Positions 6,773 to 37,195 of a DNA stretch of 47,750 nt are shown piece after piece (the first letter of the stretch is position 1; the number at the start of each line of letters is the position of its first letter). A program made the translations under genes and the position numbers. The notes under the pieces are model-generated. The model was not told the origin of the DNA. It saw only the letters and a program-made list of their open reading frames with translations, and made no database searches. The stretch is from the sequence record PZ379542.1, one strand, 5' to 3'. The DNA is from a phage.

Positions 6773-6818
6773 CAACTATACATGGTTTTGCGGATTAGTT
6801 TTAGCTATTCGTGCTGTT
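6773..6818 (-). promoter_or_regulatory. palindrome-containing promoter cassette (variant)
   Basis: Minus-strand cagcacgaatagctaaa; tgtatagt extended -10; upstream of methyltransferase-like gene. Confidence 0.5.
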
Positions 6819-6904
6819 GGTTACGCGTAACCGATGTAACTCTATGTATACCATATGCATCAGCGGGAAATCGTATACGCCTAGTTACGCTTTGATACGC
6901 CATA

Positions 6905-6967
6905 GTTACATAATAATATCTATATATATCAACCATTTACTCTTATTATTATTATTATATATATTAC
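6905..6967. repeat. AT-rich conserved block, copy 1 (gttacataataatatctatatatatcaacc...ttattattattat...)
   Basis: Near-identical to 26178-26242; (tta)n(ta)n tract. Confidence 0.85.
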
Positions 6968-7282
6968 TGTGTATATCATGTAACTACTGTTCTGGAGTGT
7001 TCCGGTTATAATTTTTATATAATGTGATTTTATACAGTATTGCGTGGCGCATATAACTATGCACCCTCCGCAAAAATCGGTATACACGGTATACGCACTA
7101 TTTACATTGAGCTATAGCTGGGCTGAAGTGGTGAAAAACGTAACTAATGGCAATGTCTACACATAGTTACGGATTTATACGCGTATACTTGATTAATTAA
7201 TCGGTGATACCAATTGGACTGTGTGTCTTGCGTGCGGCATCATTAACGCATCGAAAGCAAACAACAACAGAGAGATACAGAA

Positions 7283-7477
7283 ATGACCTACTACATTATC
7301 AAAGAGAAAAACAACGCACTGTTCGGCGACTGCTACTTTGGTGGCCCAGCCGGATACACTACCAAAAAATCTGAAGCCGACCAATTCGAGACAAAGGAAG
7401 AGGCCAAGGAGTTGCTTACAGGATACTTCACTGAAGAAGATTTGAAAGCTATTAAGATTGTTAAAATTAAGGATTGA
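7283..7477 (+). CDS. hypothetical protein
   Basis: First ORF of rightward operon; ATG with upstream purine-rich RBS. Confidence 0.5.
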   Translation: MTYYIIKEKNNALFGDCYFGGPAGYTTKKSEADQFETKEEAKELLTGYFTEEDLKAIKIVKIKD

Positions 7478-13245: not shown

Positions 13246-13291
13246 CACTATACACAATGTATAGCGCCACTGTTTATCAATTCGTGCTATT
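13246..13291 (-). promoter_or_regulatory. palindrome-containing promoter cassette (variant TTGATAAA)
   Basis: Minus-strand aaatagcacgaattgataaa; tgtgtatagt extended -10; upstream of primase. Confidence 0.6.
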
Positions 13292-13769
13292 TCCCTTGCT
13301 CTTTATCTTTTCGTGCTGCTTCGTTAGCGGCCTTAATCTTGCGCCATGAGCGACACTCTGGTTTAGTTGCTAGCTCAGCCTCAGTAACAACACGCAGCAT
13401 ATGACGCTTCTTGCAACGTAGAGTTAGCGGTTTCCCGTTACCGTCGAATTGCAGATCTGGTCGGCAGAATGTAGCGCGAAAACCTTCTCCATTTCGCTTA
13501 TAGTAGTTGTGCGACAACTGAGCGCCACGCGCAGAAATCATCCCGCGATCAAACCATTGCTCTACAGTCTGGTGAGATACATTTAACTGCTTGGCGATAT
13601 TGGCCTTCGTGCCGTAGAAATCAAGAACCATCTCCAGACGAGCTCGTAGCCCAGCCTTTACTTCATCTTTCAATACGTAGTAGCCTGACGGTCGTTTGCG
13701 CTGTTTCTTGTCTTGCGTGCGGATGGTTCCGTTATTGCCGTTGATAGTTCGCTTGTCAATTTCACACAT
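13287..13769 (-). CDS. HTH DNA-binding protein (candidate transcriptional regulator)
   Basis: Helix-turn-helix GTKANIAKQLNVSHQTVEQWFDRG; basic termini. Confidence 0.65.
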   Translation of the reverse strand: MCEIDKRTINGNNGTIRTQDKKQRKRPSGYYVLKDEVKAGLRARLEMVLDFYGTKANIAKQLNVSHQTVEQWFDRGMISARGAQLSHNYYKRNGEGFRATFCRPDLQFDGNGKPLTLRCKKRHMLRVVTEAELATKPECRSWRKIKAANEAARKDKEQGK

Positions 13770-13865: not shown

Positions 13866-14675
13866 ATGCTTCCAGTAGAGCGCTTAGTGGCGAACTTTGA
13901 TAAAGAGAAAATTAAACAGATTCAGAAAGATTACCAGTTTGGAGACATAACGCCTTACGAATTCCAGTGCGTGACATTTGACGCAATCGGTAAGGCTATT
14001 GGCAAGTACGAAGCGCCATTCATCGCAGACCTGTCGGTGTCTGCTGGTAAGACAATTATACTCGCCATGATTGGGAAACGAATGGAACAGCTTGGCCTTC
14101 CTTACATGGTCCTATCTCGCCAGTCAGAGATTATCAGCCAGAACGCAGAGGAACTTCGTAATTTCGGCATCCGTAATAGCGTCTATTGCGCTGGCCTTAA
14201 CGTTAAATCAGTTTACTACCCAACCATAGTGGCTAGCGAGGGTACGGCTGCCAACGGCTTATTTAAGGGGCTTGGTGACTATGTTCCGGCTGTTATCGCG
14301 ATAGATGAGTGCTTAACTGGAGACACGATGATAACCACCGATTCAGGGATGATGAGGATTGATAGCGAAGACCTTATCAATCATAAAATAAAATGCATAA
14401 ACGAAAGCACTGGTGATTACTTCTATCATAAGCCAAAAAGAGTTTTTACTAATGGTGTAAGACATGTATCATCAATTAAATTAGAAAGCGGAGAGGAAAT
14501 AAAATGCACGAGTACACACAAACTTTATTCGAACGGCTGCTGGGTAGGAGCGGGAAAACTTCGTATTGGGATGAATCTGTCGCTAGACGGCTCGCAGGAC
14601 AAATTTACGAAAAAGCTCCTGCGTGCAAGTGTGGCTGTGGTGAAAAAGTTATGCCGCATTCAAGCAAGGGGTTAG
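13866..14675 (+). CDS. SF2 helicase N-terminal part (Walker A, DE of DECH) fused to intein N-terminal splicing domain
   Basis: SVSAGKT Walker A; AIDE then CLTGDT (intein block A) and TSTH...GCWVGAGKLRIGMNL (block B); frame ends at TAG 14674-14676. Confidence 0.8.
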   Translation: MLPVERLVANFDKEKIKQIQKDYQFGDITPYEFQCVTFDAIGKAIGKYEAPFIADLSVSAGKTIILAMIGKRMEQLGLPYMVLSRQSEIISQNAEELRNFGIRNSVYCAGLNVKSVYYPTIVASEGTAANGLFKGLGDYVPAVIAIDECLTGDTMITTDSGMMRIDSEDLINHKIKCINESTGDYFYHKPKRVFTNGVRHVSSIKLESGEEIKCTSTHKLYSNGCWVGAGKLRIGMNLSLDGSQDKFTKKLLRASVAVVKKLCRIQARG

Positions 14676-15449
14676 GCGTACTTCTTAAGAACCCTTTCGA
14701 TTTCTATTTGGATTACAGAACGGGGCATCATAATTCAACCGTCAACCCATCAATGGAGGTTGATGACTTTTTACATCAAAACATTCTTGCGGCAATGGCT
14801 GGTGATGGTTGCTTGATTAAAAATACAGAAAAAGGAACGCATAGGCTATCTTGGAATATGGGAAATAAGGAGCACGCACTAAGCAAGGTTGAAAGGTTTG
14901 CAAAACTAAACCCTAGATACAGGGAGAAGAAAAACCCTGGATTTGGCGACAACTGGTTTTGCGTATCAACATCATGTACGAAAGTTCTGGATTCATATGC
15001 TGATAAGTACGGAAATTCTAAGGATGGTTACGATATTGGAAAGATATGCAGAGAGCTTAATCCAGTTGGTTGGGCTGCTTACTTTGGTGATGATGGTCAT
15101 TGCACTGTAAGCTCAGGGAAGAGGGTTGTAGAAATCCACACCGAATCATTTAGCAGGCGTGAAGTTCAATCAGTAGTTGATGCGCTAATAGCATTTATTG
15201 CTAATGACGGAGTTAAGGTTAGAAGCTATATTGGCGGCAAGAAAAAGAGAGAGCTTTACTCAGTATCAATAACAACGAGGTCGGCACAAGATGAGTTTTT
15301 TAAGAGAATTAGTAAGCACATGGAAAATGGCGTGGAATACAAAATCAAGCAAAATTAAAGACATCTCACCCATTGGCAAGGAACTTGTTTGGGATATAGA
15401 GATGCCTGAGCACCATAATTTCATTGCTGACGGGGTCGTGGCACATAAT
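14310..15449 (+). mobile_element. intein in helicase motif II (DE|CH), LAGLIDADG type; split or frame-shifted
   Basis: Starts Cys 14310; ends ...GVVAHN 15449 followed by +1 Cys; exactly 1140 nt; the endonuclease domain is in a different frame. Confidence 0.75.
14504..15358 (+). CDS. LAGLIDADG homing endonuclease (intein-associated; separate frame)
   Basis: Two motifs ILAAMAGDGC and WAAYFGDDGH about 100 aa apart; GGAGAGG RBS 7 nt before ATG 14504 (alternative ATG 14651). Confidence 0.65.
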   Translation: MHEYTQTLFERLLGRSGKTSYWDESVARRLAGQIYEKAPACKCGCGEKVMPHSSKGLGVLLKNPFDFYLDYRTGHHNSTVNPSMEVDDFLHQNILAAMAGDGCLIKNTEKGTHRLSWNMGNKEHALSKVERFAKLNPRYREKKNPGFGDNWFCVSTSCTKVLDSYADKYGNSKDGYDIGKICRELNPVGWAAYFGDDGHCTVSSGKRVVEIHTESFSRREVQSVVDALIAFIANDGVKVRSYIGGKKKRELYSVSITTRSAQDEFFKRISKHMENGVEYKIKQN

Positions 15450-17000
15450 TGCCACATGGTGGACCATATGGATATCGTAGAAGCTGAAGAGAATGAGGAA
15501 ACATTCGAGCAGATGAGCACGAAGAAGGGTGAGATGGTCTTTAAGGATGGTGTGAATACCGGGCTTCTTGGCACTGGTCGCGCGCAATACACGTTAATCA
15601 TTACCGAAATGAAGCGTCGATGCAAGGAGAAGTACGGTCGCGAACTTCGTATCTTTGGGTTAACTGGTAGCCCGTACCGTAACAACGACCACATTGTAGT
15701 TAGTAACCCAAATGTCCGTGGATTCTGGCGCAAAACTGTAATGCAAGTGCCAACCAGCTACCTTGTTGACTTGGGGTTTGTTGTTCCTACTGTCTACGGT
15801 GAAGTTGGTGATTTGGGCTACGACCTTAGTGAGTTCACTCCTGATGGAAGTGATGGGGTTAAGGACTTCAGCAAGAAAGAAATGGATGCGATGGCTGCAA
15901 AGATTCACGAAAACCAAACGATGACACAAAAGATAATGGGATTTGCTGCTAAGTTTATGGAAACAAGGAATGCTGCATTGGTAACTTGCGCTGGCAAACA
16001 GCATTGCGAGGAGGCGGCAGCCGCACTTCCAGAAGGTGTTACTTGGGCGATAGTTACCAACTCCACTGGTGAGAAGAAGCGTAGAGAGATACTTGAGAAG
16101 GCAGCCAACGGAGAATATAAGTTCATATTTCAGATTGGTTGCCTCACAACTGGCGTAAACTGCCCCCCGTGGGATACAAGCATTATCCTGAGGAAGGTTG
16201 GTAGCATTACTCTACTCATTCAGTTGCTTGGTCGTGGTATGCGTATCCTTAAGAAGAAGCACAAAGAAGCTGGAATGGTAAAAGATGACCATGTTGTTCT
16301 TGATTTTGCTGGAACGCTTGATGATATGGCTGAACTTTACTTCGACCCAATTATAGAAGAGGTACAAGACCAGAAATTTAGGTCAGCAAGAAAGCGTGGT
16401 GATGAGCCAAGAATCTGTCCGGTATGCTCTTATGGGAACTCTCCATTCGCCAGGCGCTGCAATAACGTAATTGACGGGAAGCGCTGTGAGCACTTCTTTC
16501 AGTTTAGACTGTGTGAAGATATAGCGGACCCACAGACCAAAGCTATCATCAAGAAAGGATGCGGTGAGAAGAATGATATTGCAGCTAAGAATTGCAGATG
16601 CTGTGGTGAGATGCTCATAGACCCGAATGCTAAGTTATCAGGAAAAATGTATCGTAAGGGGGACTGGTTGCGAGTTTATGACTTCAAGATTGGGTTAACA
16701 AAGAACCAGTCAGGGATTGTTGCTTCATATGAGGTAATGGCTCATAGTGGAGATAAGTTCCGAGCTTATGAAACATTCTTCCCGGAGTCAGACCATCGTG
16801 TTTGTTCTGTCAAATGGAAGGCGTTTTGCTCAACTCACATCGAGAACAGGACTGAGGCTTTTAGGATTGGCAGATTGCGTAATGCTAAAATGATTATGAC
16901 AAATGCACATCTTTTCCGTGCGCCGCTAAGGATTACGCACCGCAAGAATCAGAAGTCGCAAGATATTATCGCCAACAAATCATTTACGATGGAGGATTGA
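15291..17000 (+). CDS. intein C-terminal splicing domain fused to helicase C-terminal part
   Basis: KIKDISPIGKELVWDIEMPEHHNFIADGVVAHN|C (blocks F/G); then LTGSP and QLLGRGMR helicase motifs and Cys-rich zinc-ribbon-like C-terminus. Confidence 0.8.
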   Translation: MSFLRELVSTWKMAWNTKSSKIKDISPIGKELVWDIEMPEHHNFIADGVVAHNCHMVDHMDIVEAEENEETFEQMSTKKGEMVFKDGVNTGLLGTGRAQYTLIITEMKRRCKEKYGRELRIFGLTGSPYRNNDHIVVSNPNVRGFWRKTVMQVPTSYLVDLGFVVPTVYGEVGDLGYDLSEFTPDGSDGVKDFSKKEMDAMAAKIHENQTMTQKIMGFAAKFMETRNAALVTCAGKQHCEEAAAALPEGVTWAIVTNSTGEKKRREILEKAANGEYKFIFQIGCLTTGVNCPPWDTSIILRKVGSITLLIQLLGRGMRILKKKHKEAGMVKDDHVVLDFAGTLDDMAELYFDPIIEEVQDQKFRSARKRGDEPRICPVCSYGNSPFARRCNNVIDGKRCEHFFQFRLCEDIADPQTKAIIKKGCGEKNDIAAKNCRCCGEMLIDPNAKLSGKMYRKGDWLRVYDFKIGLTKNQSGIVASYEVMAHSGDKFRAYETFFPESDHRVCSVKWKAFCSTHIENRTEAFRIGRLRNAKMIMTNAHLFRAPLRITHRKNQKSQDIIANKSFTMED

Positions 17001-18620: not shown

Positions 18621-19757
18621 ATGGCAGCAGCAAAGATTACCAACGAGCAATTAATCGAAGAACTGAAAAACGGCCTTACTAACAAGGCGATTGCAGAGAA
18701 GTATGGTATGAACATTCGTAACGTTGAGATTCGTCGCAGTAAGTTGGCTAAGAGTGGCTTGTTCGGGCATGGTAACGAAGGCATTAAGAAGCTAGTACCG
18801 GACGGATACTTGGTAAAAGGCACTTCGACCATGATTGATGCGGATGGGAATGAGAAGCTGCGTTGGGTTAAGACTTCAATTGATAATGAGCGCCTTGAGA
18901 TTCTGCTTGAGCAAGCACGAGAGGCATTTTGTTCTGACTTACCAAAGGCAGTTGCCAGTGAGTGCCCAGACATTGATTTTGATGATGACACGATGGCTAT
19001 GTATCCGGTTTTCGACCTTCACATTGGCGCAATGGCTCATAAGCATGAGTGCGGTGAAAACTACGACACTGCAACAGCAGAGAAGGTAATGAATAGCTTC
19101 TTTGATTATGCTGTAGATAAGGCTCCTAAATCAATAAATGCGACATTAGTTTTGGGGGGTGATTTTCTGCATTACGACTCTCTAGAGGCTAAAACACCAG
19201 CATCAGGACATATCTTAGACAGCGACAGTCGCTATGCTAAATTGGTTTACGTAGCAATCCGCTCAGTGCGTCGTGCGGTTTCAAGGATGCTTGAGAAGCA
19301 CCAAATCATTGATATTAAAGTAATAAGTGGAAATCACGACGAAGCTGGGATGGTTTGGTTGCGTGCAGCATTGGCGGCATTCTATGAAGACGAGGAGCGA
19401 ATTACTGTCGACGTAAGCCCAGCAGCAATGCTGATGACAAGCTTCGGCTCAACATTGATTGGTTATACTCATGGTCACCAGATGCGAAAAGCTGAAACTC
19501 GACTTACAGTAATGGCTACAGACTTTCGTAAACTATTCGGTAACAGCGAATATGTCTATACACACTCGGGCCACTGGCATAGTCAGAAAATTACAGAAAC
19601 AAACCTGGGTATCGATGAAGTTCATGGTCAGCTTGGCGCGCCAGATGCCTATTCAGCTAATGGAGGATGGCGCTCAATGCGTCAAGCAGCGGTAATCGTT
19701 TACCATAAGCGTTTTGGTGAGGTTGGTCGATTTATTTGTCGCCCTGAGATGTTCTAA
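18621..19757 (+). CDS. calcineurin-like metallophosphoesterase with N-terminal HTH
   Basis: DLHIG, GGDF, GNHDE, GHWH phosphoesterase motifs; N-terminal LTNKAIAEKYGMNIRNVEIRRSKL HTH. Confidence 0.7.
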   Translation: MAAAKITNEQLIEELKNGLTNKAIAEKYGMNIRNVEIRRSKLAKSGLFGHGNEGIKKLVPDGYLVKGTSTMIDADGNEKLRWVKTSIDNERLEILLEQAREAFCSDLPKAVASECPDIDFDDDTMAMYPVFDLHIGAMAHKHECGENYDTATAEKVMNSFFDYAVDKAPKSINATLVLGGDFLHYDSLEAKTPASGHILDSDSRYAKLVYVAIRSVRRAVSRMLEKHQIIDIKVISGNHDEAGMVWLRAALAAFYEDEERITVDVSPAAMLMTSFGSTLIGYTHGHQMRKAETRLTVMATDFRKLFGNSEYVYTHSGHWHSQKITETNLGIDEVHGQLGAPDAYSANGGWRSMRQAAVIVYHKRFGEVGRFICRPEMF

Positions 19758-22655: not shown

Positions 22656-24239
22656 TTACCCCAGCAGTCGCGGATTAATGTAAATTTTATCACCAATCAG
22701 GCACGTGTAGTTTTTCTCGTCAAGCATAGGAATTAAATGGTCCTTGATACGAGTCATTACACCCGCCTGAGCTTCAAAAGGTTTAACCTTGCGAGCAGCT
22801 TCATACAATGAGCGAACACCAACAACACCTTTCCCATTCTTACCCTGCTTAATCAGGATATCAACCAGCTTATTCATCTCGGCATTGTCACCAGCATGAC
22901 CAGCGGCACTAGCAGATGACAAATAAGTCTTGCTCAGTTCGTTAAAAATCATAACCGCTTCCTGCATCGTATCAAGTTCAATCTCTCTTGATTTCTTCGG
23001 ACTTGAACCATCTGGCGCGAACCAGTTACGAATAACGTGCAGGACAGAAGCTATACGTATTGCTTGCTTATCAAATTTACCCAGCGCACCGCGTAACATT
23101 GTGTGGGAGTACTTCCCGCCATCACCAAGATGCGGCTCCATCTCCTGACGTGATCGGTTAAGGTAACGCATTGATGATGCGCTTACTGTTAGCTTAACCT
23201 CTACTTCATTCATAATCTCATGAACAAGACGGAAATAGTCTGCTTTCAGGCCGCCATCAATAGCCTCATAGGTTGAATCACCATTTTCATCAACAAATAC
23301 ACGGTCGCCAAGAAATGATTTTTCACGCACCAGAAGGAAACGCTCAGATACACCAATACCACGCGCACCAGCATTCATAATGGCATTGATTGTTTCATCC
23401 TGAGCAATTACGGAGATGCATCCCATAGCCACAAAGCTCATGTTATTTTCTGCGTTCGCACGGGCAATTGACACATTACCTGCATCCCATGCTTTCAGCA
23501 CGAGCTCGCTGTTCGTTTTCTTAGAGCCATCACCATATGTCATACCCAACAATGAGTTGACGCTAGTTGCCTCATCAGATATTACCGCAAAGTTACCCTG
23601 GCGGTTGTTGATTCGCGCAAGGCCTTCAGGTGTGGTATCGGAGACTGGAAATACGATATCGCATAGTTTCTCAAGTTTTTCCTCTAAATCCTCTTTTTCC
23701 TCAAATAGTGAAGCCATTTCAGAAGGTGATTTCTCCTGCTTCATCTCTTTAGCCAGAGCGGACAGTTTAGCCATAATCTTTTTTCGATCACGTTTACGTA
23801 CTTCATTCAACCGCTCAGTCTCAGCAATCATCGGCGCAATTGATAGCGAGTTAATGGCTGATTTACCAGTTGAAGGCGGCTGACTTGTTACCACGTACAA
23901 AGATGTTGGCTGTTGGGTTCCATGATACTCGACAGTAAAACGCCCAAGCATTGCAGCAGAAACACAACCAAGAAAGTGCATGTAAGCTGACGACTCAGGG
24001 AACTGAACCGAGCGAGCGATATTAGCCGATAGCTTACCAACAACATCAATATCATTACCGAGTGAGATTACTGGATACTTATCATTACCTGTATCAATCT
24101 CGACAGGTGCTTTCCAGAACGATTGAGACTGTCGATAGCCATTGGCATTAATAGCCACGCGAAGCGGTGGTAGGTTGTCATTGGCAGCGATTGCCATAAC
24201 TTGCTCAACAGATAGTTTATCTTCATTGAAATAAAACAT
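22656..24239 (-). CDS. putative replication-associated P-loop protein (function uncertain)
   Basis: Large ORF; ATG 24239 with GGAGAG RBS; P-loop-like SQPPSTGKSAIN; promoter cassette upstream. Confidence 0.6.
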   Translation of the reverse strand: MFYFNEDKLSVEQVMAIAANDNLPPLRVAINANGYRQSQSFWKAPVEIDTGNDKYPVISLGNDIDVVGKLSANIARSVQFPESSAYMHFLGCVSAAMLGRFTVEYHGTQQPTSLYVVTSQPPSTGKSAINSLSIAPMIAETERLNEVRKRDRKKIMAKLSALAKEMKQEKSPSEMASLFEEKEDLEEKLEKLCDIVFPVSDTTPEGLARINNRQGNFAVISDEATSVNSLLGMTYGDGSKKTNSELVLKAWDAGNVSIARANAENNMSFVAMGCISVIAQDETINAIMNAGARGIGVSERFLLVREKSFLGDRVFVDENGDSTYEAIDGGLKADYFRLVHEIMNEVEVKLTVSASSMRYLNRSRQEMEPHLGDGGKYSHTMLRGALGKFDKQAIRIASVLHVIRNWFAPDGSSPKKSREIELDTMQEAVMIFNELSKTYLSSASAAGHAGDNAEMNKLVDILIKQGKNGKGVVGVRSLYEAARKVKPFEAQAGVMTRIKDHLIPMLDEKNYTCLIGDKIYINPRLLG

Positions 24240-24268
24240 TACTTCTCTCCGCATTGTTTCTGAGCGGC

Positions 24269-25648: not shown

Positions 25649-25834
25649 TTACCAGGGTAAACATTCGTCGCAGCCGAGGCCATCGCAGCACAGATATTCA
25701 TCATCTGACTGGAATTGCTTAGCAAGGTCGATATCGATGCGTCCGCGTAAAACCATATCAGTATAGTCACTATTCAATCCAATCAGCGCACATTCCTGCT
25801 TTAATTGCTCAAATGCTTCGTCTTTAAGTTTCAT
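25649..25834 (-). CDS. hypothetical protein (Cys-rich C-terminus)
   Basis: First gene of leftward operon; GAGGAG RBS; C-terminal CCDGLGCDEC. Confidence 0.5.
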   Translation of the reverse strand: MKLKDEAFEQLKQECALIGLNSDYTDMVLRGRIDIDLAKQFQSDDEYLCCDGLGCDECLPW

Positions 25835-25861: not shown

Positions 25862-25907
25862 ATTATGGTATCGTCGCCAGTTTTTGTCATTAGCAAAAAG
25901 TGCTATT
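25862..25907 (-). promoter_or_regulatory. palindrome-containing promoter cassette (leftward early/middle promoter)
   Basis: Minus-strand gaatagcactttttgctaa; cataat; tccatcaacaacga leader. Confidence 0.6.
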
Positions 25908-25920
25908 CGTTGGATTTATA

Positions 25921-26026
25921 GATTGTTGCAGCTATTGCAATGATTATCATGATTATTGCACATATAGCAATATTGCATGGAATGCAATGATGTTTTTGAT
26001 TGTTGCATAATTTGCAATGATTGATG
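25921..26026. repeat. iteron-like array of TTGCA(AT) repeats incl. palindrome ATTGCAAT
   Basis: Seven TTGCA cores at 25925, 25935, 25956, 25973, 25983, 26003, 26013; TGCAATGAT x3; GATTGTTGCA x2. Confidence 0.7.
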
Positions 26027-26177
26027 TGGGGTGAATGAATGGTGGATGAACTACCATACAAGTTGATTTTGATTCTTGCTGAGCCAATTTGGATATACAC
26101 GTTATCGAAGTTATGGTGTGTATATGAGGTGCGCTTCCGAAGAATCATACACGCCTACCACGCGAGATTACGCAATG

Positions 26178-26242
26178 GTTACATAATAATATCTATATAT
26201 ATCAACCTTTTACTATATTATTATTATTATTATATATATGTA
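26178..26242. repeat. AT-rich conserved block, copy 2
   Basis: Near-identical to 6905-6967. Confidence 0.85.
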
Positions 26243-26506
26243 TGTATATGGTGTAGATTGGTCGTATGGATGGGTCGATAGTTTTTCTATGAAAACTACT
26301 AATTTTATCTATATAGATACATATGCATACCCCCGGCGAATCCGCGTAAAATCTTACACAGGGTAATTACACCGGCTATAGCTTGGCTGAGAGGTCAAAA
26401 AGCGTAACCAATGCAGATATAAACACAACATAACACTTGATAACGCGTATATTCATGATACCATGGTTTCATCTTAACGAAGAGCAACCAATCAGGAGTA
26501 ACGAAT

Positions 26507-27028
26507 ATGTCAGAACATAAAGAAGCAGTAAGTTTGGGTGAAATCATTCGATACATGGCGAGTCAGGCGCTAAAGTCAGAAGACAAAGTGTGCACAGTCC
26601 CTGTGACCATGATTGCTCGTCAATACTTCGGCATGAGTCGTGAGACGTTCGTATCGCTAAGTGGTGAGGAGGTTCTACCTGGTGGTGAATACCACATGCC
26701 AAAACTAAAATCGTCATACGTTTCAAACACCGTAAGCCGAATGCCTGAGATTAAGGCGGCTGACGTGCGCTCAAGGTTCTCACTTAGTTTTACCGACTTT
26801 GAGGGCGAGAGTGAGACATACTGCGCATCACTTAGCCTGGTTCCTGGCGCTGTAAAATCCGGCTCAAGAAGCAAAGCAGAGCAAGAGAAGGAGGCGGCTA
26901 CCATTGAAAGGTTCAAGGCTCGATTGTTGAAACTATCACCAAGCGTCGCTGGTCTTGAAGGTGATGAACTTAAGGGTGCAGTATCAATGATTAACGCATA
27001 CCAGGAAATGATTAAGGAGACTAAATAG
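26507..27028 (+). CDS. hypothetical early protein
   Basis: 173 aa; AGGAG RBS; first gene of rightward early operon. Confidence 0.6.
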   Translation: MSEHKEAVSLGEIIRYMASQALKSEDKVCTVPVTMIARQYFGMSRETFVSLSGEEVLPGGEYHMPKLKSSYVSNTVSRMPEIKAADVRSRFSLSFTDFEGESETYCASLSLVPGAVKSGSRSKAEQEKEAATIERFKARLLKLSPSVAGLEGDELKGAVSMINAYQEMIKETK

Positions 27029-31384: not shown

Positions 31385-31909
31385 ATGAAAGACGAAAACT
31401 TCACCAGTCAGGCGCAAGAAAAGGTCCGCTCTGGCAACTTTAAAGCCATGTACAATAAAAAGTACTCAGACATTACAACGCTAGCCAAAAACCGAAGCAT
31501 GACACCCGAACAGCTATTTGAATTCGCCGTGAAATACTTCTCATGGGCTGAGGACCAGGCAATCAAGGCAATCGAGACAGCCAGCTTCCAGGGTGTGGTA
31601 AAAGAGAGCCTGGTGCACAAACCACGAGTCTTCACGCTAACCGGATTCTGCCTTTACTGCGGTGTCACCCATAGCGCTATCGAGAAATGGAGGAAGTCGG
31701 CTGGTTATGATGAGGTGATTGCGTTCATTGATTCCGTGATTCGCGAGCAGAAATACCAGCTTGCAGCATCTGGCATCATTAACCCTGGCATGATTTCCAA
31801 AGAGCTTGGAATCGACAAGCCGCAGGAGATTACCATCAGCAACAACTCTTCAGCTAACGACGTCGATACGATGAAGGAAGCGCTGGAGTCTGTGATTAGC
31901 AAACTGTAA
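31385..31909 (+). CDS. terminase small subunit (candidate)
   Basis: 174-aa ORF with AAAGGAGG RBS directly upstream of terminase large subunit. Confidence 0.55.
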   Translation: MKDENFTSQAQEKVRSGNFKAMYNKKYSDITTLAKNRSMTPEQLFEFAVKYFSWAEDQAIKAIETASFQGVVKESLVHKPRVFTLTGFCLYCGVTHSAIEKWRKSAGYDEVIAFIDSVIREQKYQLAASGIINPGMISKELGIDKPQEITISNNSSANDVDTMKEALESVISKL

Positions 31910-32027
31910 GAACATGGCGGGTTGGTATGATAAAATTGATTAAGGCATTATTGGCGTATTACATGATAGCGGCTACATGCTTCACAACTGGATTCTTAAT
32001 TGGCGTGATGGTTGGATTGGTGAAATT

Positions 32028-33596
32028 ATGGCTAATTTAGTTTGGGAGGAAATGACGACAGCAGAAAAGATGGCGGTTAAGGCGATATCCACTCATAGCT
32101 TCGAGGGATTCTTGCGGGTGTGGTTCCAGCTAACTCAGGGAGAGCGGTACATCCCAAACTGGCATCATAAATACCTTTGCAGAATCATTGACGAGATTAT
32201 CGCAGGTGAGCGCAAGGACACTATCATTAACATAGCACCAGGTAGCGGAAAAACAGAGATAGCCTCAATTCACTTCCCAGCATACTCAATGGTGAAGCTA
32301 AAGAAGGTAAGGAACCTCAACATCTCATTTGCTGACTCACTGGTTAAGCGCAACTCCAAGCGAGTGCGCGACCTGATTAAGTCTGTTGAGTTCCAGGAGT
32401 TATTCCCTTGCAAGTTCGGCACGTGCAAGGACGATGAGTTACAGGTCCTTGATGAGTCTGGAAAGGTCCGGTTTGAATCAATCTCAAAAGCTGCTGGCGG
32501 TCAGATTACCGGCGCAAGGGGTGGGTATATAACAGATTCATATAGTGGCGCAGTACTGTTAGATGATTTTGACAAACCTGCAGATATGCTTTCGGCTGTA
32601 TTCCGTGCCAACAACCATGTGATGCTAAAGAACACCATACGTTCTCGTAGGGCTAGCTCGGTAAAAGGCAAGGCGACGCCGATTATCTCTATCCAACAGC
32701 GCCTTCATGTGAATGATAGTACGTGGTTCATGATGAATGGCGGTATGGGTATTAGCTTCGACTTGATTAAGATACCGGCGCTCGTAACTGAGAATTACGT
32801 CGACACGCTCCCTGACTGGATTAAGCAGCAATTCATTGATGACGTTCTATCAAGCGAATATATTGAGCGTGATGGTGTTAGGTACTATAGCTATTTCCCT
32901 GGCAAGGAATCTGTTCACGACCTAGTTGCAATGTGGGATTCTGATAGCTATACATTCCTTAGCCAGTATCAGCAAGAACCAGTAGCACTTGGCGGCAACC
33001 TGATTAACGTAGACTGGCTTCAACGCATTAGCGACACTCTGCGACCGCCAGCTAAGTACGATTACAGGTTTATGGTCCTTGATACTGCGATGACAACCAA
33101 AAGTTACAGCGACTTTAGCGTCATGCAGCTATGGGGTTATAAGGATGGGAAGATTTATCTGCTTGACCAGCGGCGCGGTAAATTTGAAGCTCCTGAGCTC
33201 GAGGCTGAGTTATTGGATTTCGAGAAGATGGCTAGGGCATCCAATCAGATAGATGGTATCCTTCGTAAAATCATCATCGAGAAGAAAGCCTCTGGTATTG
33301 GCCTGATTCAATCAGCCGGAAGGGTTATGCGAACGCCTATCGAGCCGTACGTTCCTGATAACGATAAGCTGACTCGCGTAATGAGTGCATTGCCGCAGAT
33401 TAAAGCTGGTAACGTAATCCTTCCGGAGTCTGCTACTTGGCTTAATGGCTTGCTAACGGAGATTGCGGCATTCACGGCAGATGATTCACATGTTCACGAT
33501 GACCAGATAGACTGTTTGACAATGGCTGTCAACCTGGTACTGAACATTGCAGAAGACCCTAAATCGAGGATGATGCGCCTCGCTGGCATCAAATAG
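32028..33596 (+). CDS. terminase large subunit
   Basis: Walker A IAPGSGKT; C-terminal nuclease-like region; ATG 32028 (alternative in-frame ATG 31977); stop TAG inside cassette motif. Confidence 0.8.
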   Translation: MANLVWEEMTTAEKMAVKAISTHSFEGFLRVWFQLTQGERYIPNWHHKYLCRIIDEIIAGERKDTIINIAPGSGKTEIASIHFPAYSMVKLKKVRNLNISFADSLVKRNSKRVRDLIKSVEFQELFPCKFGTCKDDELQVLDESGKVRFESISKAAGGQITGARGGYITDSYSGAVLLDDFDKPADMLSAVFRANNHVMLKNTIRSRRASSVKGKATPIISIQQRLHVNDSTWFMMNGGMGISFDLIKIPALVTENYVDTLPDWIKQQFIDDVLSSEYIERDGVRYYSYFPGKESVHDLVAMWDSDSYTFLSQYQQEPVALGGNLINVDWLQRISDTLRPPAKYDYRFMVLDTAMTTKSYSDFSVMQLWGYKDGKIYLLDQRRGKFEAPELEAELLDFEKMARASNQIDGILRKIIIEKKASGIGLIQSAGRVMRTPIEPYVPDNDKLTRVMSALPQIKAGNVILPESATWLNGLLTEIAAFTADDSHVHDDQIDCLTMAVNLVLNIAEDPKSRMMRLAGIK

Positions 33597-36088: not shown

Positions 36089-37195
36089 ATGTATAAGAAT
36101 CGCTTTGATACAGCAACATTCAAAGCCACCATTGACGAGAATGGTTTTCTCGTCGATACGCCAGTAGTAGCAAGGGTTGGTGTGCAGGTTTATTTCACAG
36201 AGGACGGTTCGACTGTTCGAGAGTTCAGGCCAGCAGAAGAAGTCTTCAAAGAGGAGTCGCTAGCCAGTTACCAGGGTAAGCCAATGACTCTTGACCACGT
36301 CTTTGTAAACTCCGATAACGCTAAAGACGTAGTGGTCGGCTCGGTAACTGGTAAAGCTGAGGCTCTAGGAAGTACGGTAATTGCGCCAATTGTCGTATAC
36401 TCTCAAGAAGCTATTGACGAGGCTCGCTCAGGTAACGCTAAGGAATTATCTGTAGGTTACTCTGCCGTTCTTGATGAAACTCCGGGTTGGGGTGACCCTG
36501 CAACTGGTAATTATATCCTTAGAAGTGACAACACACAGGGGCTCGACATACCTCCTGACTGGCAAGAGTTCGACGCAATCCAGAGAGACATTAAGGTAAA
36601 CCATTTAGCTATGGTCTTCAGGGGTAGGGCTGGAATTGCTAAGCTAAATATGGACGGGCAGCAAGAAAACCCGTATACTGACAACGTTGATTTAAATACT
36701 AAGGAAAACAAAATGACAGTTAAGATTAAGATTGACTCTGTTGAAGTTGAGGTGTCTAAAGAGGTTGCAGACCACATCTCCAAAATTAACTCCGCTGTTG
36801 AAGCACAGAAAGCTAAGGTTGATTCCATCGAAGCTGAGCGTGACGCACTGAAAGCCAAAGTAGACGCAATGCCCGCTGAAATCGAGAAAGCAGTCAAAGC
36901 TGCCAAAGCTGACGCTGAAGCACTTGCCGCTCTGGTTACTGTAGCCACTGAAGCTGGTGTTAAGACTGATGGCCTGGATGCTAAAGGCATTAAGGTATTA
37001 TACGTTAAAGAAGTTTCCGGCCTTGATGTTTCCGAGAAGTCCGACGCATACATCGATGCAGCGTTCGACATTGCCAAAGAATCTGATAAAATGGCTGAAG
37101 TACGTAAAGCGACTACCGCTTCCGACAAATCTGACAGCGCCGATGAGCCTAAGAAATTAGACCCACGTGCTCGTTTAGCTAAAATTAAGAAATAA
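36089..37195 (+). CDS. prohead protease / scaffolding protein (fusion-like)
   Basis: ATG 36089 with GGAG RBS; C-terminal Ala/Lys/Glu-rich coiled-coil typical of scaffolds. Confidence 0.55.
   Translation: MYKNRFDTATFKATIDENGFLVDTPVVARVGVQVYFTEDGSTVREFRPAEEVFKEESLASYQGKPMTLDHVFVNSDNAKDVVVGSVTGKAEALGSTVIAPIVVYSQEAIDEARSGNAKELSVGYSAVLDETPGWGDPATGNYILRSDNTQGLDIPPDWQEFDAIQRDIKVNHLAMVFRGRAGIAKLNMDGQQENPYTDNVDLNTKENKMTVKIKIDSVEVEVSKEVADHISKINSAVEAQKAKVDSIEAERDALKAKVDAMPAEIEKAVKAAKADAEALAALVTVATEAGVKTDGLDAKGIKVLYVKEVSGLDVSEKSDAYIDAAFDIAKESDKMAEVRKATTASDKSDSADEPKKLDPRARLAKIKK

What the first reader, a model, noticed from the sequence alone, without database searches (positions are those of the whole stretch)
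25921..26026. Iteron-like array of TTGCAAT / TGCAATGAT repeats beside the leftward early promoter
Seen in sequence: seven TTGCA cores within ~100 bp (gattgttgca x2, tgcaatgat x3, perfect 8-bp palindrome ATTGCAAT at 25934-25941), spaced ~10-20 bp. They lie between the leftward cassette promoter (25862-25907) and the AT-rich block of copy 2. Inference: binding array for a dimeric DNA-binding protein, either an operator cluster or an origin iteron set. The overlapping track ORF 25903-26148 is probably not coding.
Basis: partly seen in the sequence, partly recalled or inferred. Interest (0 to 1): 0.5.

Follow-up and report, generated by a model that had tools for sequence, protein, structure and literature searches.

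The report
Repeat array at the phage packaging-start site
The TTGCA repeat cluster is real, non-coding and almost unchanged across a large group of T1-like coliphages, and it sits where relatives' packaged DNA is reported to begin, so it is most likely part of the signal that tells the packaging enzyme where to start.

Summary
Positions 25921-26022 hold eight TTGCAA-like hexamers, forming four palindromes TTGCA-N5-(T/A)GCAA in two 47-bp tandem units. Their spacing (9-21-9-8-9-21-9) is symmetric about 25971/25972. No simulated genome reached this density.

The window is a T1-like, Rtp-like coliphage (Drexlerviridae). The array lies in the 670-bp gap between divergent early operons. It is nearly invariant across three lineages although the flanking genes diverge. 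T1 keeps exactly one 47-bp unit; TLS has GATTG/GATTTG repeats at the same place.

ORF 25903-26148 is broken by stops in all five relatives. No RNA family or covariation was found.

Genome ends reported for relatives map into or just right of the array: T1 position 1 (25972), Rtp (25966), the MSK PhageTerm peak (26054), SU57 (about 26071) and Rao1 (about 26045). The small terminase is a P22 gp3 homologue.

Best reading (about 0.45): the array is the recognition part of the pac site, with the first cut in or beside it. Rivals are an operator or enhancer array for a dimeric regulator (about 0.2) and origin iterons (about 0.18). This would be a new member of a known kind, of moderate interest.

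The parts
25921..26022 (.). TTGCAA-hexamer array. It has four palindromes: S1 25926-25940, S2 25956-25970, S3 25973-25987 and S4 26003-26017. These sit in two 47-bp tandem units. The dyad axis is at 25971/25972, inside the perfect palindrome GCAATATTGC (25967-25976).
   Evidence: It is near-invariant in relatives. T1 record position 1 aligns to 25972 and Rtp position 1 to 25966.
26023..26085 (+). Purine-rich, G-skewed conserved block (GATGTGGGGTGAATGAATGGTGGATGAACTACCATACAAGTTGATTTTGATTC). It is the candidate cleavage zone for series initiation.
   Evidence: GC skew reaches +0.81 and the block is conserved. The MSK PhageTerm terminus maps to 26054, the SU57 record junction to about 26071 and Rao1 position 1 to about 26045.
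25887..25907 (-). One copy of the T1-family dispersed 21-nt repeat (AATAGCACTTTTTGCTAATGA; palindromic core TAGCA-N5-TGCTA at 25891-25905). It overlaps the -35 hexamer of the leftward promoter by four bases and extends upstream of it. It is a separate element from the array.
   Evidence: There are ten TAGCA-N5-TGCTA copies in the window against 0.5 expected. It matches the consensus aaATAGCACnnnTTGnTAAAA described for TLS, T1 and Rtp (PMC11447400).
25862..25890 (-). Leftward early promoter-like site, ATGACA-17-CATAAT.
   Evidence: 10 of 12 matches. The -35 GTCAT is conserved in relatives.
25913..25919 (+). Invariant GATTTAT, shared with the core of the P22 pac sequence (AAGATTTATCTG). This is a resemblance only.
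   Evidence: It is invariant in alignment A1. The P22 pac sequence is quoted in PMC11447400.
26169..26239 (.). Core of the AT-rich cassette, flanked on its left by ACGC-type short repeats. It is duplicated at 6896-6964. It is not part of the array but lies in the same control region.
26437..26464 (+). Rightward early promoter-like site, TTGATA-16-TACCAT, with a TG upstream of the -10.
   Evidence: It is conserved in relatives.
31385..31909 (+). Small terminase subunit, a P22 gp3 homologue. It is the proposed reader of the array.
   Evidence: PHROG 606, E = 1e-57. Pfam PF16677, E = 1.6e-12. PDB 3P9A, E = 1.4e-13.
31977..33596 (+). Candidate large terminase subunit: a 539-aa ORF immediately downstream of the small-terminase gene. 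It is the proposed nuclease that makes the initiating cut.
   Evidence: ORF list. It is 78% identical to the homologous Sd1 product and 56-58% identical in T1 and TLS, at the position of the annotated terminase large subunit. It was not run against any family library here.
25903..26148 (-). Spurious 81-aa ORF overlapping the array.
   Evidence: It has no family hit. It is interrupted in all three frames in IME542, JulesPiccard, Sd1, P817 and 12210I.

Best explanation
The array is the recognition part of this phage's pac site, the cis-acting signal at which headful DNA packaging starts on the replicated concatemer.

Proposed mechanism:
1. The oligomeric small terminase (31385-31909, a P22 gp3 homologue), possibly with a helper protein, assembles on about 100 bp of A/T-rich DNA that is punctuated by eight GC-cored TTGCAA hexamers.
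2. The large terminase then makes the series-initiating cut, imprecisely, within the array or in the conserved purine-rich block 25-50 bp to its right (about 26045-26071).
3. Packaging proceeds rightward, towards the small early genes and the terminase and head genes.

What is shown: the array's existence, uniqueness and strong conservation; its non-coding nature; the terminase homology; and the mapping of relatives' reported ends onto it.

What is inferred: that the small terminase binds the hexamers, the position of the cut in this particular phage, and the wrapping geometry.
For: 1. Locus identity. The window is a T1-like, Rtp-like phage.
- The T1 RefSeq record starts with an annotated 2800-bp terminal repeat_region at position 1. 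T1 position 1 (G|TTGCATGGTGTGCAAC...) aligns to window 25972, the dyad centre of the array.
- Rtp position 1 aligns to 25966.
- The TLS pac site, mapped by restriction analysis, lies at the homologous place.

2. Read-based ends in close relatives.
- PhageTerm gave a forward-strand terminus for phage MSK at position 36,862 (p = 1.6e-9; PMC8421802). This aligns to window 26054.
- The SU57 end, chosen at an abrupt change in read coverage (PMC7718038), maps to about 26071. The Rao1 record starts at about 26045.
- Seven record ends or termini, counting ESCO41 (25926) and FP (25897) as well, fall within 175 bp of a 45-50 kb genome.

3. Uniqueness. The array occurs once in the genome. It is absent from 5,426 E. 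coli genomes and 72,556 plasmids.

4. Conservation. The array is the most conserved non-coding stretch of the region. Similar sequence occurs in 130 phage records, and the aligned relatives span three lineages, while the neighbouring small genes have no detectable homologues.

5. Lineage-specific repeats at a fixed position: T1 has one unit, TLS and others have GATTG-type repeats. This is the pattern expected of a specificity site.

6. Terminase. The small terminase is a gp3-type protein. Published small-terminase rings have a circumference of about 300 A and HTH motifs about one helical turn apart. They are proposed to favour about 100-bp A/T runs interspersed with GC steps (PMC4737164). That matches the 102-bp array at 30-33% G+C.

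7. Two mosaic lineages favour the terminase over the nearby helicase as the partner.
- Contig 2706796100 has an 84% identical DUF3987 helicase, a TLS-level small terminase and a TLS-like array.
- T1 has a 57% identical helicase, but small-terminase residues 28-90 are 74% identical and it keeps a TTGCA unit.
Against: - No end data exist for this phage itself.
- I could not read the experimental basis of T1 position 1 (Roberts et al. 2004 is not held). Several record starts may simply copy the T1 or Rtp convention.
- The MSK GenBank record is flagged UNVERIFIED, and I assumed the paper's coordinates match that record.
- The sites are palindromes with half-sites one helical turn apart. That geometry is typical of dimeric HTH regulators rather than of a ring of identically oriented subunits.
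- Small-terminase covariation is inconsistent. The window's small terminase is only 62-69% identical to those of phages with 90-95% identical arrays. The L183-L186 lineage keeps a site-4-like element with the most divergent small terminase, 49% over residues 28-90. An unbiased scan found another protein (18621-19757) that tracks the T1-versus-TLS difference better than the small terminase does.
- According to the MSK paper, earlier authors looked to ATATA repeats, which would be the AT-rich block, as the T1 pac signal.
- For P22 gp3 the HTH-like motif is reported as occluded, and DNA binding is attributed to the C-terminus.
Confidence: 0.45

Rival explanations
1. The array is an operator or enhancer cluster. 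A dimeric HTH protein binds the four palindromes upstream of the leftward early promoter and tunes or times the divergent early operons. The protein could be phage-encoded, for example the Pir-like regulator at 13287-13769 or a small early protein.
For: - The 5-N5-5 palindromes have half-site centres 10 bp apart, the classic dimeric HTH geometry.
- The array starts 31 bp upstream of the -35 of the leftward promoter.
- It lies next to a palindrome of the same geometry, TAGCA-N5-TGCTA (25891-25905). That palindrome belongs to a promoter-associated dispersed repeat family.
- The T1 homologue of 13287-13769, Orf23/Pir, is an experimentally shown transcription regulator (PMC6737242). It is 87% identical between the window and Sd1 and 100% identical over the mid-protein stretches that include its weak Cro-like HTH match.
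Against: - The array does not overlap either promoter core. It spans about -66 to -167 relative to the leftward start and lies about 415 bp from the rightward promoter.
- The two motif types are strictly separated. All ten dispersed promoter-linked copies are TAGCA/TGCTA, and all TTGCA/TGCAA sites are in the array. This argues for a different reader.
- Spacers and flanks are as invariant as the half-sites, which is more than a simple operator needs.
- This reading does not explain why genome ends map here.
Confidence: 0.2
2. The array is a set of origin iterons. A phage initiator binds the repeats and melts the nearby AT-rich block to start replication. The initiator could be the DUF3987 P4-alpha-like helicase at 22656-24254 or the primase partner.
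For: - Repeats plus a 17-18% G+C block lie within 160 bp, in a non-transcribed gap.
- The lambda-type precedent is palindromic iterons next to an A/T-rich segment (established knowledge).
- A DUF3987 helicase gene lies 1.7 kb away.
- Between the window and Sd1 the replication proteins are the best-conserved proteins (85-90%), paralleling the array, whereas the small terminase is 62%.
Against: - The spacing of 30-17-30 is not helically phased direct repeats.
- The AT-rich cassette is about 150 bp away and is duplicated at 6896-6964 with no array beside it.
- That cassette has its own adjacent ACGC/TTACGCC short repeats, which are better iteron candidates.
- Helicase similarity does not track array type. 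T1 has the most divergent helicase but keeps a TTGCA unit. TLS and contig 2706796100 have closer helicases but no TTGCA sites.
- GC skew only follows the direction of transcription.
- This reading does not explain the mapped ends.
Confidence: 0.18
3. The array is a cluster of binding sites for a host factor. E. coli CytR, a LacI-family protein with flexible half-site spacing, or a similar host protein would bind the TTGCA/TGCAA pentamers. It would act either as a regulator or as an architectural helper, as IHF does at lambda cos.
For: - The published CytR consensus is TGCAA-N2-3-TTGCA, the palindrome TTGCAA, or the octamers GTTGCATT/AATGCAAC with variable spacers (PMC3454398).
- The array contains AGCAA-TA-TTGCA at its centre and several 7-of-8 octamer matches: GTTGCATA, AATGCAAT, and in T1 GTTGCATG and TGTGCAAC.
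Against: - Natural CytR operators are sandwiched between two CRP sites. No CRP-like site with two or fewer mismatches lies within about 1.4 kb of the array.
- A 5-bp core carries little information.
- There is no obvious rationale in a virulent phage.
- Other lineages replace the motif with GATTG-type repeats, which fits a co-evolving phage protein better than a fixed host factor.
Confidence: 0.05
4. The array is a structured RNA or an extruded DNA hairpin or cruciform formed by its long dyad.
For: The plus strand folds into a long hairpin of -37.9 kcal/mol with z = -2.5. The dyad is conserved.
Against: - None of the 24 predicted pairs shows a compensatory change.
- Many pairs are G-U, which would be mismatches in DNA.
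- The minus strand has z = -1.25.
- There is no Rfam hit at E <= 1.
- No promoter is predicted to transcribe the plus strand across the array.
- The fold follows automatically from repeated palindromes.
Confidence: 0.03
5. The array is the coding sequence of the 81-aa ORF 25903-26148 on the minus strand.
For: An open frame with an ATG start exists in this phage. A promoter-like match within the AT-rich block points leftward.
Against: - The frame is interrupted by stops or frameshifts in all five relatives examined, although the DNA is conserved.
- There is no Pfam or PHROG match.
- The peptide is low-complexity and rich in I, C, N and H, dictated by the repeat.
Confidence: 0.01

Closest known systems
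Phage P1 pac site (hexamer clusters flanking the cut; recalled from the P1 literature, not checked here)
   Same: - Both are roughly 100-160 bp non-coding signals built from multiple copies of a palindromic hexamer. P1 has TGATCA/G in groups of 4 and 3; here there are TTGCAA-like hexamers in groups of 4 and 4.
- Both are arranged on either side of a central point where a genome end is reported.
- Both are used for headful packaging.
   Different: - The P1 hexamers carry GATC and are controlled by Dam methylation. The hexamers here contain no GATC.
- The P1 recogniser, PacA, is unrelated to gp3-type small terminases.
- Binding and cleavage are demonstrated for P1 and untested here.
SPP1/SF6 pac (pacL-pacC-pacR with boxA, boxB and boxC repeats)
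   Same: - Sets of short repeats lie in a promoter-containing intergenic region.
- About 100 bp of bendable A/T-rich DNA with GC steps is proposed to wrap a small-terminase ring.
- The cut lies between or beside the repeat sets (PMC4737164).
   Different: - The SPP1 repeats are direct, not palindromic, and lie at the start of the small-terminase gene. Here the site is 5.4 kb upstream of that gene.
- The small-terminase families differ.
P22 and Sf6 pac with gp3-type small terminase
   Same: - The small terminase is homologous (PF16677; PDB 3P9A, E = 1.4e-13).
- Series-initiation ends in P22-like phages are imprecise (P22's spacing recalled from the literature, not checked here; for Sf6, cleavage spread over about 1800 bp is quoted in PMC9915841). 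This resembles the 175-bp scatter of reported ends here.
- A GATTTAT heptamer is shared with the P22 pac core.
   Different: - P22 pac is a single asymmetric 22-bp sequence inside the small-terminase gene. Here the signal is a 102-bp symmetric repeat array in a distant intergenic region.
Previously reported T1-family pac assignments (T1 record start, TLS 'AGATTT', ATATA repeats)
   Same: It is the same locus, the gap between the divergent early operons, about 540 bp upstream of the first rightward gene.
   Different: - None of the papers I could read describes the TTGCA array.
- The TLS site was assigned by resemblance to P22. The SU57 authors state that the pac site was not identified. According to the MSK paper, ATATA repeats were proposed for T1.
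Lambda ori iterons and lambda OR/OL operators
   Same: Several palindromic sites for a dimeric protein sit close together in a control region. An A/T-rich segment lies nearby, as at ori.
   Different: - Spacing is irregular (30-17-30).
- The A/T-rich block is not adjacent and is duplicated elsewhere.
- The sites do not overlap promoter cores.

Membership tests
pac site of a headful-packaging phage | The phage encodes pac-type terminase subunits and belongs to a group shown to package by the headful mechanism. | tested here: met
   The small terminase matches PF16677, PHROG 606 and PDB 3P9A. A large-terminase candidate lies at 31977-33596. Headful packaging is reported for T1, TLS, MSK and SU57.
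pac site of a headful-packaging phage | The ends of first-headful chromosomes map to the site. | tested here: inconclusive
   The feature is met by homology in relatives: T1 position 1 with its repeat_region, the MSK PhageTerm peak, the SU57 coverage break, the TLS restriction map, and the Rtp and Rao1 record starts. There are no reads or virion DNA for this phage, and some record starts may be convention.
pac site of a headful-packaging phage | The signal is unique in the genome. | tested here: met
   All TTGCA-N5-TGCAA sites and the only dense hexamer cluster are here.
pac site of a headful-packaging phage | The small terminase binds the site specifically, and the site alone confers packaging or transduction on a plasmid. 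| not testable with these tools
   This needs EMSA or footprinting and a transduction assay.
iteron-type replication origin | There are several same-orientation repeats of about 17-22 bp at regular, helically phased spacing. | tested here: not met
   The sites are palindromes with centre spacings of 30, 17 and 30 bp. The repeat unit is 47 bp.
iteron-type replication origin | An A/T-rich unwinding element lies immediately adjacent and is specific to the origin. | tested here: inconclusive
   An A/T-rich block exists but starts about 150 bp away. Its core recurs at 6896-6964 without an array.
iteron-type replication origin | A cognate initiator co-varies with the repeats. | tested here: not met
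   The similarity of the DUF3987 helicase, primase and HTH regulator does not follow the presence or absence of TTGCA sites in T1, TLS and contig 2706796100.
operator cluster for a dimeric HTH regulator | The sites have inverted half-sites about one helical turn apart. | tested here: met
   There are four sites of the form TTGCA-N5-(T/A)GCAA.
operator cluster for a dimeric HTH regulator | The sites overlap or closely flank the promoter core elements they control. | tested here: not met
   The array begins 31 bp upstream of the leftward -35 hexamer and extends away from it. The rightward promoter is about 415 bp away.
T1-family dispersed 21-nt repeat (aaATAGCACnnnTTGnTAAAA) | The element has an ATAGCAC...TTGnTA core, lies upstream of genes and is oriented with transcription. 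| tested here: not met
   Array sites are TTGCA/TGCAA, never TAGCA/TGCTA. The true family member is the neighbouring 25887-25907 copy.
CytR operator | The operator has TGCAA/TTGCA half-sites. | tested here: met
   Compare.
CytR operator | The operator is flanked by tandem CRP sites. | tested here: not met
   No TGTGA-N6-TCACA match with two or fewer mismatches lies between 24503 and 28528.

The most novel reading that the evidence does not exclude
The array is a shared hub where a dimeric sequence-specific protein, not the terminase ring itself, marks the packaging start. That protein would be a phage early protein or a recruited host LacI-type factor such as CytR. Initiation of headful packaging in T1-like phages would then be licensed by a transcription-factor-like adaptor and coupled to early gene expression or to the host's nucleoside state.
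Probability: 0.07. Interest if true: 0.7.

Novelty: new member of a known kind. Interest (0 to 1): 0.4.

Why it matters
T1-like phages (Drexlerviridae) are common laboratory and fermentation contaminants, generalized transducers and therapy candidates. Even so, none of the papers I could read defines their pac signal. One assigns it by resemblance to P22, one cites ATATA repeats, and one states it was not identified.

A concrete, testable candidate is a 102-bp symmetric array of eight TTGCAA hexamers plus an adjacent cleavage zone. It would let people do four things:
- orient and compare these genomes on a biological landmark;
- design packaging-competent vectors or packaging-dead therapeutic phages;
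- predict pseudo-pac sites that drive transduction;
- study how a gp3-type small terminase reads a repeat array rather than a single 22-bp site.

Tried and rejected
- Coding ORF: rejected.
- Known RNA family or structured RNA: no Rfam hit and no covariation.
- GC-skew evidence for an origin: the skew only mirrors the direction of transcription.
- Satellite, prophage or plasmid mimicry of the site: no match in E. coli genomes or plasmids.
- Protein-array covariation. A windowed T1-versus-TLS identity scan over all ORFs and Mantel-style correlations of array similarity with small-terminase segments (Spearman 0.18-0.23) were too weak to decide. The DUF3987 helicase domains also do not track.
- Literature on the basis of T1 position 1 and Rtp position 1: Roberts 2004, Wietzorrek 2006 and Leavitt 2013 are not held.
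- Search for a T1-array-like sequence in the lambda P-Q interval. From memory, T1 was reported to start packaging lambda DNA there. Only a chance-level 22-of-32 match was found, and the exact site is unknown to me.
- CRP sites that would support a CytR cassette: none.
- The pattern scan of viral contigs returned mostly chance hits. The useful relatives came from protein-anchored loci.

Full report
**What the window is**

The nearest records are Escherichia phages ES and AN_ECEAS, at 98% identity. More distant relatives are IME542, Rtp, JulesPiccard, Sd1 and P817, all Drexlerviridae, the T1 superfamily.

The finding lies in a 670-bp gap between two divergent operons. A leftward operon has its first gene starting at 25834. 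A rightward operon starts at 26507 with a DUF7174 protein. The small terminase is at 31385-31909, followed by a 539-aa ORF at 31977-33596 in the large-terminase position. A DUF3987 helicase, homologous to T1 gp09, is at 22656-24254 on the minus strand.

**Checking the observation**

The anatomy can be sharpened.

- Eight hexamers within one mismatch of the palindrome TTGCAA start at 25926, 25935, 25956, 25965, 25973, 25982, 26003 and 26012. The expectation is 0.55 in 102 bp.
- They pair into four palindromes TTGCA-N5-(T/A)GCAA. These lie in two 47-bp tandem units that are 72% identical.
- The spacings are 9-21-9-8-9-21-9. They are exactly symmetric about 25971/25972, which is the centre of the perfect palindrome GCAATATTGC.
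- The density of TTGCA/TGCAA is 9 per 106 bp. It exceeds every one of 150 simulated genomes (maximum 7) and the next densest real location (5).
- All three TTGCA-N5-TGCAA matches in 47.75 kb are here.

**The array is not coding and not a known RNA**

The overlapping 81-aa ORF (25903-26148, minus strand) has no Pfam or PHROG match. In five relatives every minus-strand frame across the homologous stretch has stops, and the length differences are not multiples of three.

Rfam gives nothing at E <= 1. The plus strand can fold into a long hairpin (z = -2.5). This follows automatically from the repeated palindromes. None of its 24 pairs shows a compensatory change in nine relatives.

**Conservation**

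A block of about 410 bp (25885-26295) is found in 130 phage records at 73-99% identity and is mostly unannotated.

In alignments spanning Braunvirinae, Rogunavirinae (Sd1) and Nouzillyvirus (P817), the stretch from 25885 to about 26085 is almost invariant, spacers included. The small genes on either side have no detectable homologues in Sd1, T1 or TLS.

The most constant pieces are:
- site 1 and site 2;
- the right half of site 3 (ATGCAATGATG);
- GATTGTTGC of site 4;
- the block GGACTACCATACAAGTTGATTTTGATTC to the right of the array.

T1 and its close relatives carry exactly one 47-bp unit, with hexamers at offsets 0, 9, 30 and 39.

TLS and several uncultivated lineages have no TTGCA sites. 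At the same position they have GATTG/GATTTG or other short repeats, followed by a purine-rich run and then an A/T-rich block. The architecture is therefore family-wide while the repeat motif is lineage-specific.

**Separate neighbouring elements**

- The sequence TTAGCAAAAAGTGCTAT (25890-25906) overlaps the -35 of the leftward promoter by one base and extends upstream of it. It is one of ten TAGCA-N5-TGCTA copies in the window, against 0.5 expected. It matches the 21-nt repeat aaATAGCACnnnTTGnTAAAA described for TLS, T1 and Rtp, whose function is unknown.
- The two motif types are strictly separated. Dispersed copies are TAGCA/TGCTA and array copies are TTGCA/TGCAA. This suggests different readers.
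- The A/T-rich block to the right (core 26169-26239) is part of a cassette. A second copy of the cassette lies in the other divergent gap, at 6784-7283, with no array.

**Where packaging starts in relatives**

- The T1 RefSeq record begins with an annotated 2800-bp terminal repeat. Its first bases, G|TTGCATGGTGTGCAAC, align to window 25972.
- Rtp position 1 aligns to 25966, ESCO41 position 1 to 25926 and FP position 1 to 25897.
- The TLS pac site was mapped by restriction analysis to the homologous place, and the final base was chosen by resemblance to P22 pac.
- For MSK, an Rtp-like phage, PhageTerm reported a forward-strand terminus at 36,862 (p = 1.6e-9). I aligned this to window 26054.
- The SU57 end was chosen at an abrupt change in read coverage. 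It maps to about 26071. The Rao1 record starts at about 26045.
- So seven ends fall within 175 bp. Three of them lie in a 26-bp stretch 23-50 bp to the right of the array.

Caveats:
- I could not read how T1 and Rtp position 1 were set.
- Some records may copy a convention.
- The MSK record is flagged UNVERIFIED.
- Nothing is known for this phage itself.

**Terminase**

The small subunit is a clear homologue of P22 gp3 (PF16677; PDB 3P9A, E = 1.4e-13, residues 39-150).

Published work on small-terminase rings gives a circumference of about 300 A and HTH motifs about one DNA turn apart. It proposes a preference for about 100-bp bendable DNA with A/T runs interrupted by GC steps. The 102-bp array has 30-33% G+C, with one GC step per hexamer. 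It fits that description.

As my own arithmetic, DNA wrapped on a ring of 45 A radius has a path of about 2*pi*55 A, or about 102 bp. The same paper warns that the gp3 HTH-like motif is occluded and that DNA binding is attributed to the C-terminus, so the mode of reading is open.

**Which protein tracks the array?**

The result is mixed.

- Between the window and Sd1 the arrays are almost identical. The replication proteins are 85-90% identical, but the small terminase is only 62%. This favours a link to replication.
- Contig 2706796100 has an 84% identical helicase, yet it has a TLS-like array and a TLS-level small terminase.
- T1 has the most divergent helicase (57%) but keeps a TTGCA unit. 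Its small-terminase residues 28-90 are 74% identical to the window, against 52% for TLS. Both of these mosaic cases favour the terminase.
- Against that, lineage L183-L186 keeps a site-4-like element with the most divergent small terminase. An unbiased scan found that the 378-aa protein at 18621-19757 tracks the T1-versus-TLS contrast better.
- I treat covariation as weak support only.

**Rivals**

- An operator or enhancer array for a dimeric HTH regulator fits the palindromic geometry and the position just upstream of the leftward promoter. The T1 homologue of 13287-13769 (Pir) is a proven regulator. However, the array avoids promoter cores, its motif differs from the promoter-linked repeats, and this reading does not explain the ends.
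- Origin iterons fit the combination of repeats and an A/T-rich block. However, the spacing is irregular, the A/T cassette is distant, duplicated and has its own ACGC-type repeats, and the helicase does not co-vary.
- Host CytR shares the pentamer consensus, but the flanking CRP sites that define its operators are absent.

**Verdict**

The array is a conserved protein-binding element.

The best-supported function is the recognition part of the pac site of this T1-like phage, with the first cut in or just right of it (confidence about 0.45). An operator or enhancer role (about 0.2) and an origin role (about 0.18) remain open, and dual use is possible.

None of the papers I could read describes the array. 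The class of element is well known, so this is a new member of a known kind, of moderate interest.

Noticed in passing
window 6784-7283 versus 26095-26470 (core 6896-6964 = 26169-26239): A cassette of about 400 bp occurs twice, once in each of the two divergent intergenic gaps. It contains an A/T-rich block (TACATAATAATATCTATATATATCAACC...TTATTATTATTATTATATATAT), a GCTATAGCTnGGCT motif and a promoter-like region. The core is 91.5% identical between copies. Its function is unknown. It could be a strong early-promoter upstream region or an unwinding element.
   Followed up: partly
window 6053, 8450, 12232, 15189, 17419, 20846, 25078, 25891, 28495, 33594: Ten copies of TAGCA-N5-TGCTA are present, against 0.5 expected. 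They correspond to the 21-nt intergenic repeat aaATAGCACnnnTTGnTAAAA that the TLS paper lists as an open question. The Pir-like HTH regulator (13287-13769) is a natural candidate reader, but this was not tested.
   Followed up: partly
window about 26140-26180; T1 (L008) 196-217; window 6875-6905: Short ACGC-type repeats sit immediately left of the A/T-rich block in both cassette copies and in T1. In T1 they are AAATTACGCC twice, 11 bp apart. In the window they are ACACGCC, CCACGCG and TTACGCA. This iteron-like layout is a better origin candidate than the TTGCA array.
   Followed up: no
window 13866-17000: The large SNF2/DEAD-type helicase gene appears split (13866-14675 and 15291-17000). Both parts give weak Intein_splicing hits. 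An intervening ORF (14504-15358) has no homologue in Sd1, T1 or TLS. This suggests an intein or a homing-endonuclease insertion.
   Followed up: no
window 18621-19757: This 378-aa protein corresponds to the T1 gene annotated 'DNA repair exonuclease'. It is 84% identical to the T1 protein, while neighbouring proteins are 40-55% identical. This indicates a recent exchange between lineages.
   Followed up: no
L097/L146 (IMGVR_UViG_2706796100_000001): This is a mosaic phage. Its DUF3987 helicase is 84% identical to the window, but its small terminase is at TLS level (52%). Its pac-region repeats are TLS-like (GATTAGATTTGATGAG..., plus TATTCC/GGAATA repeats). It would be a useful natural swap for testing which protein reads the repeats.
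   Followed up: partly
phage record MG065688.1 (hit H7): A record named Campylobacter phage A110b is 75% identical to this coliphage region over 586 bp. The host label looks doubtful; it may reflect contamination or a mis-assignment.
   Followed up: no
window 25985-26050: The top strand has almost no C over about 65 bp (GC skew +0.81). A purine-rich run of the type GTGAGTGAGTGAATGA follows the repeats in every lineage examined, including TLS and T1.
   Followed up: partly
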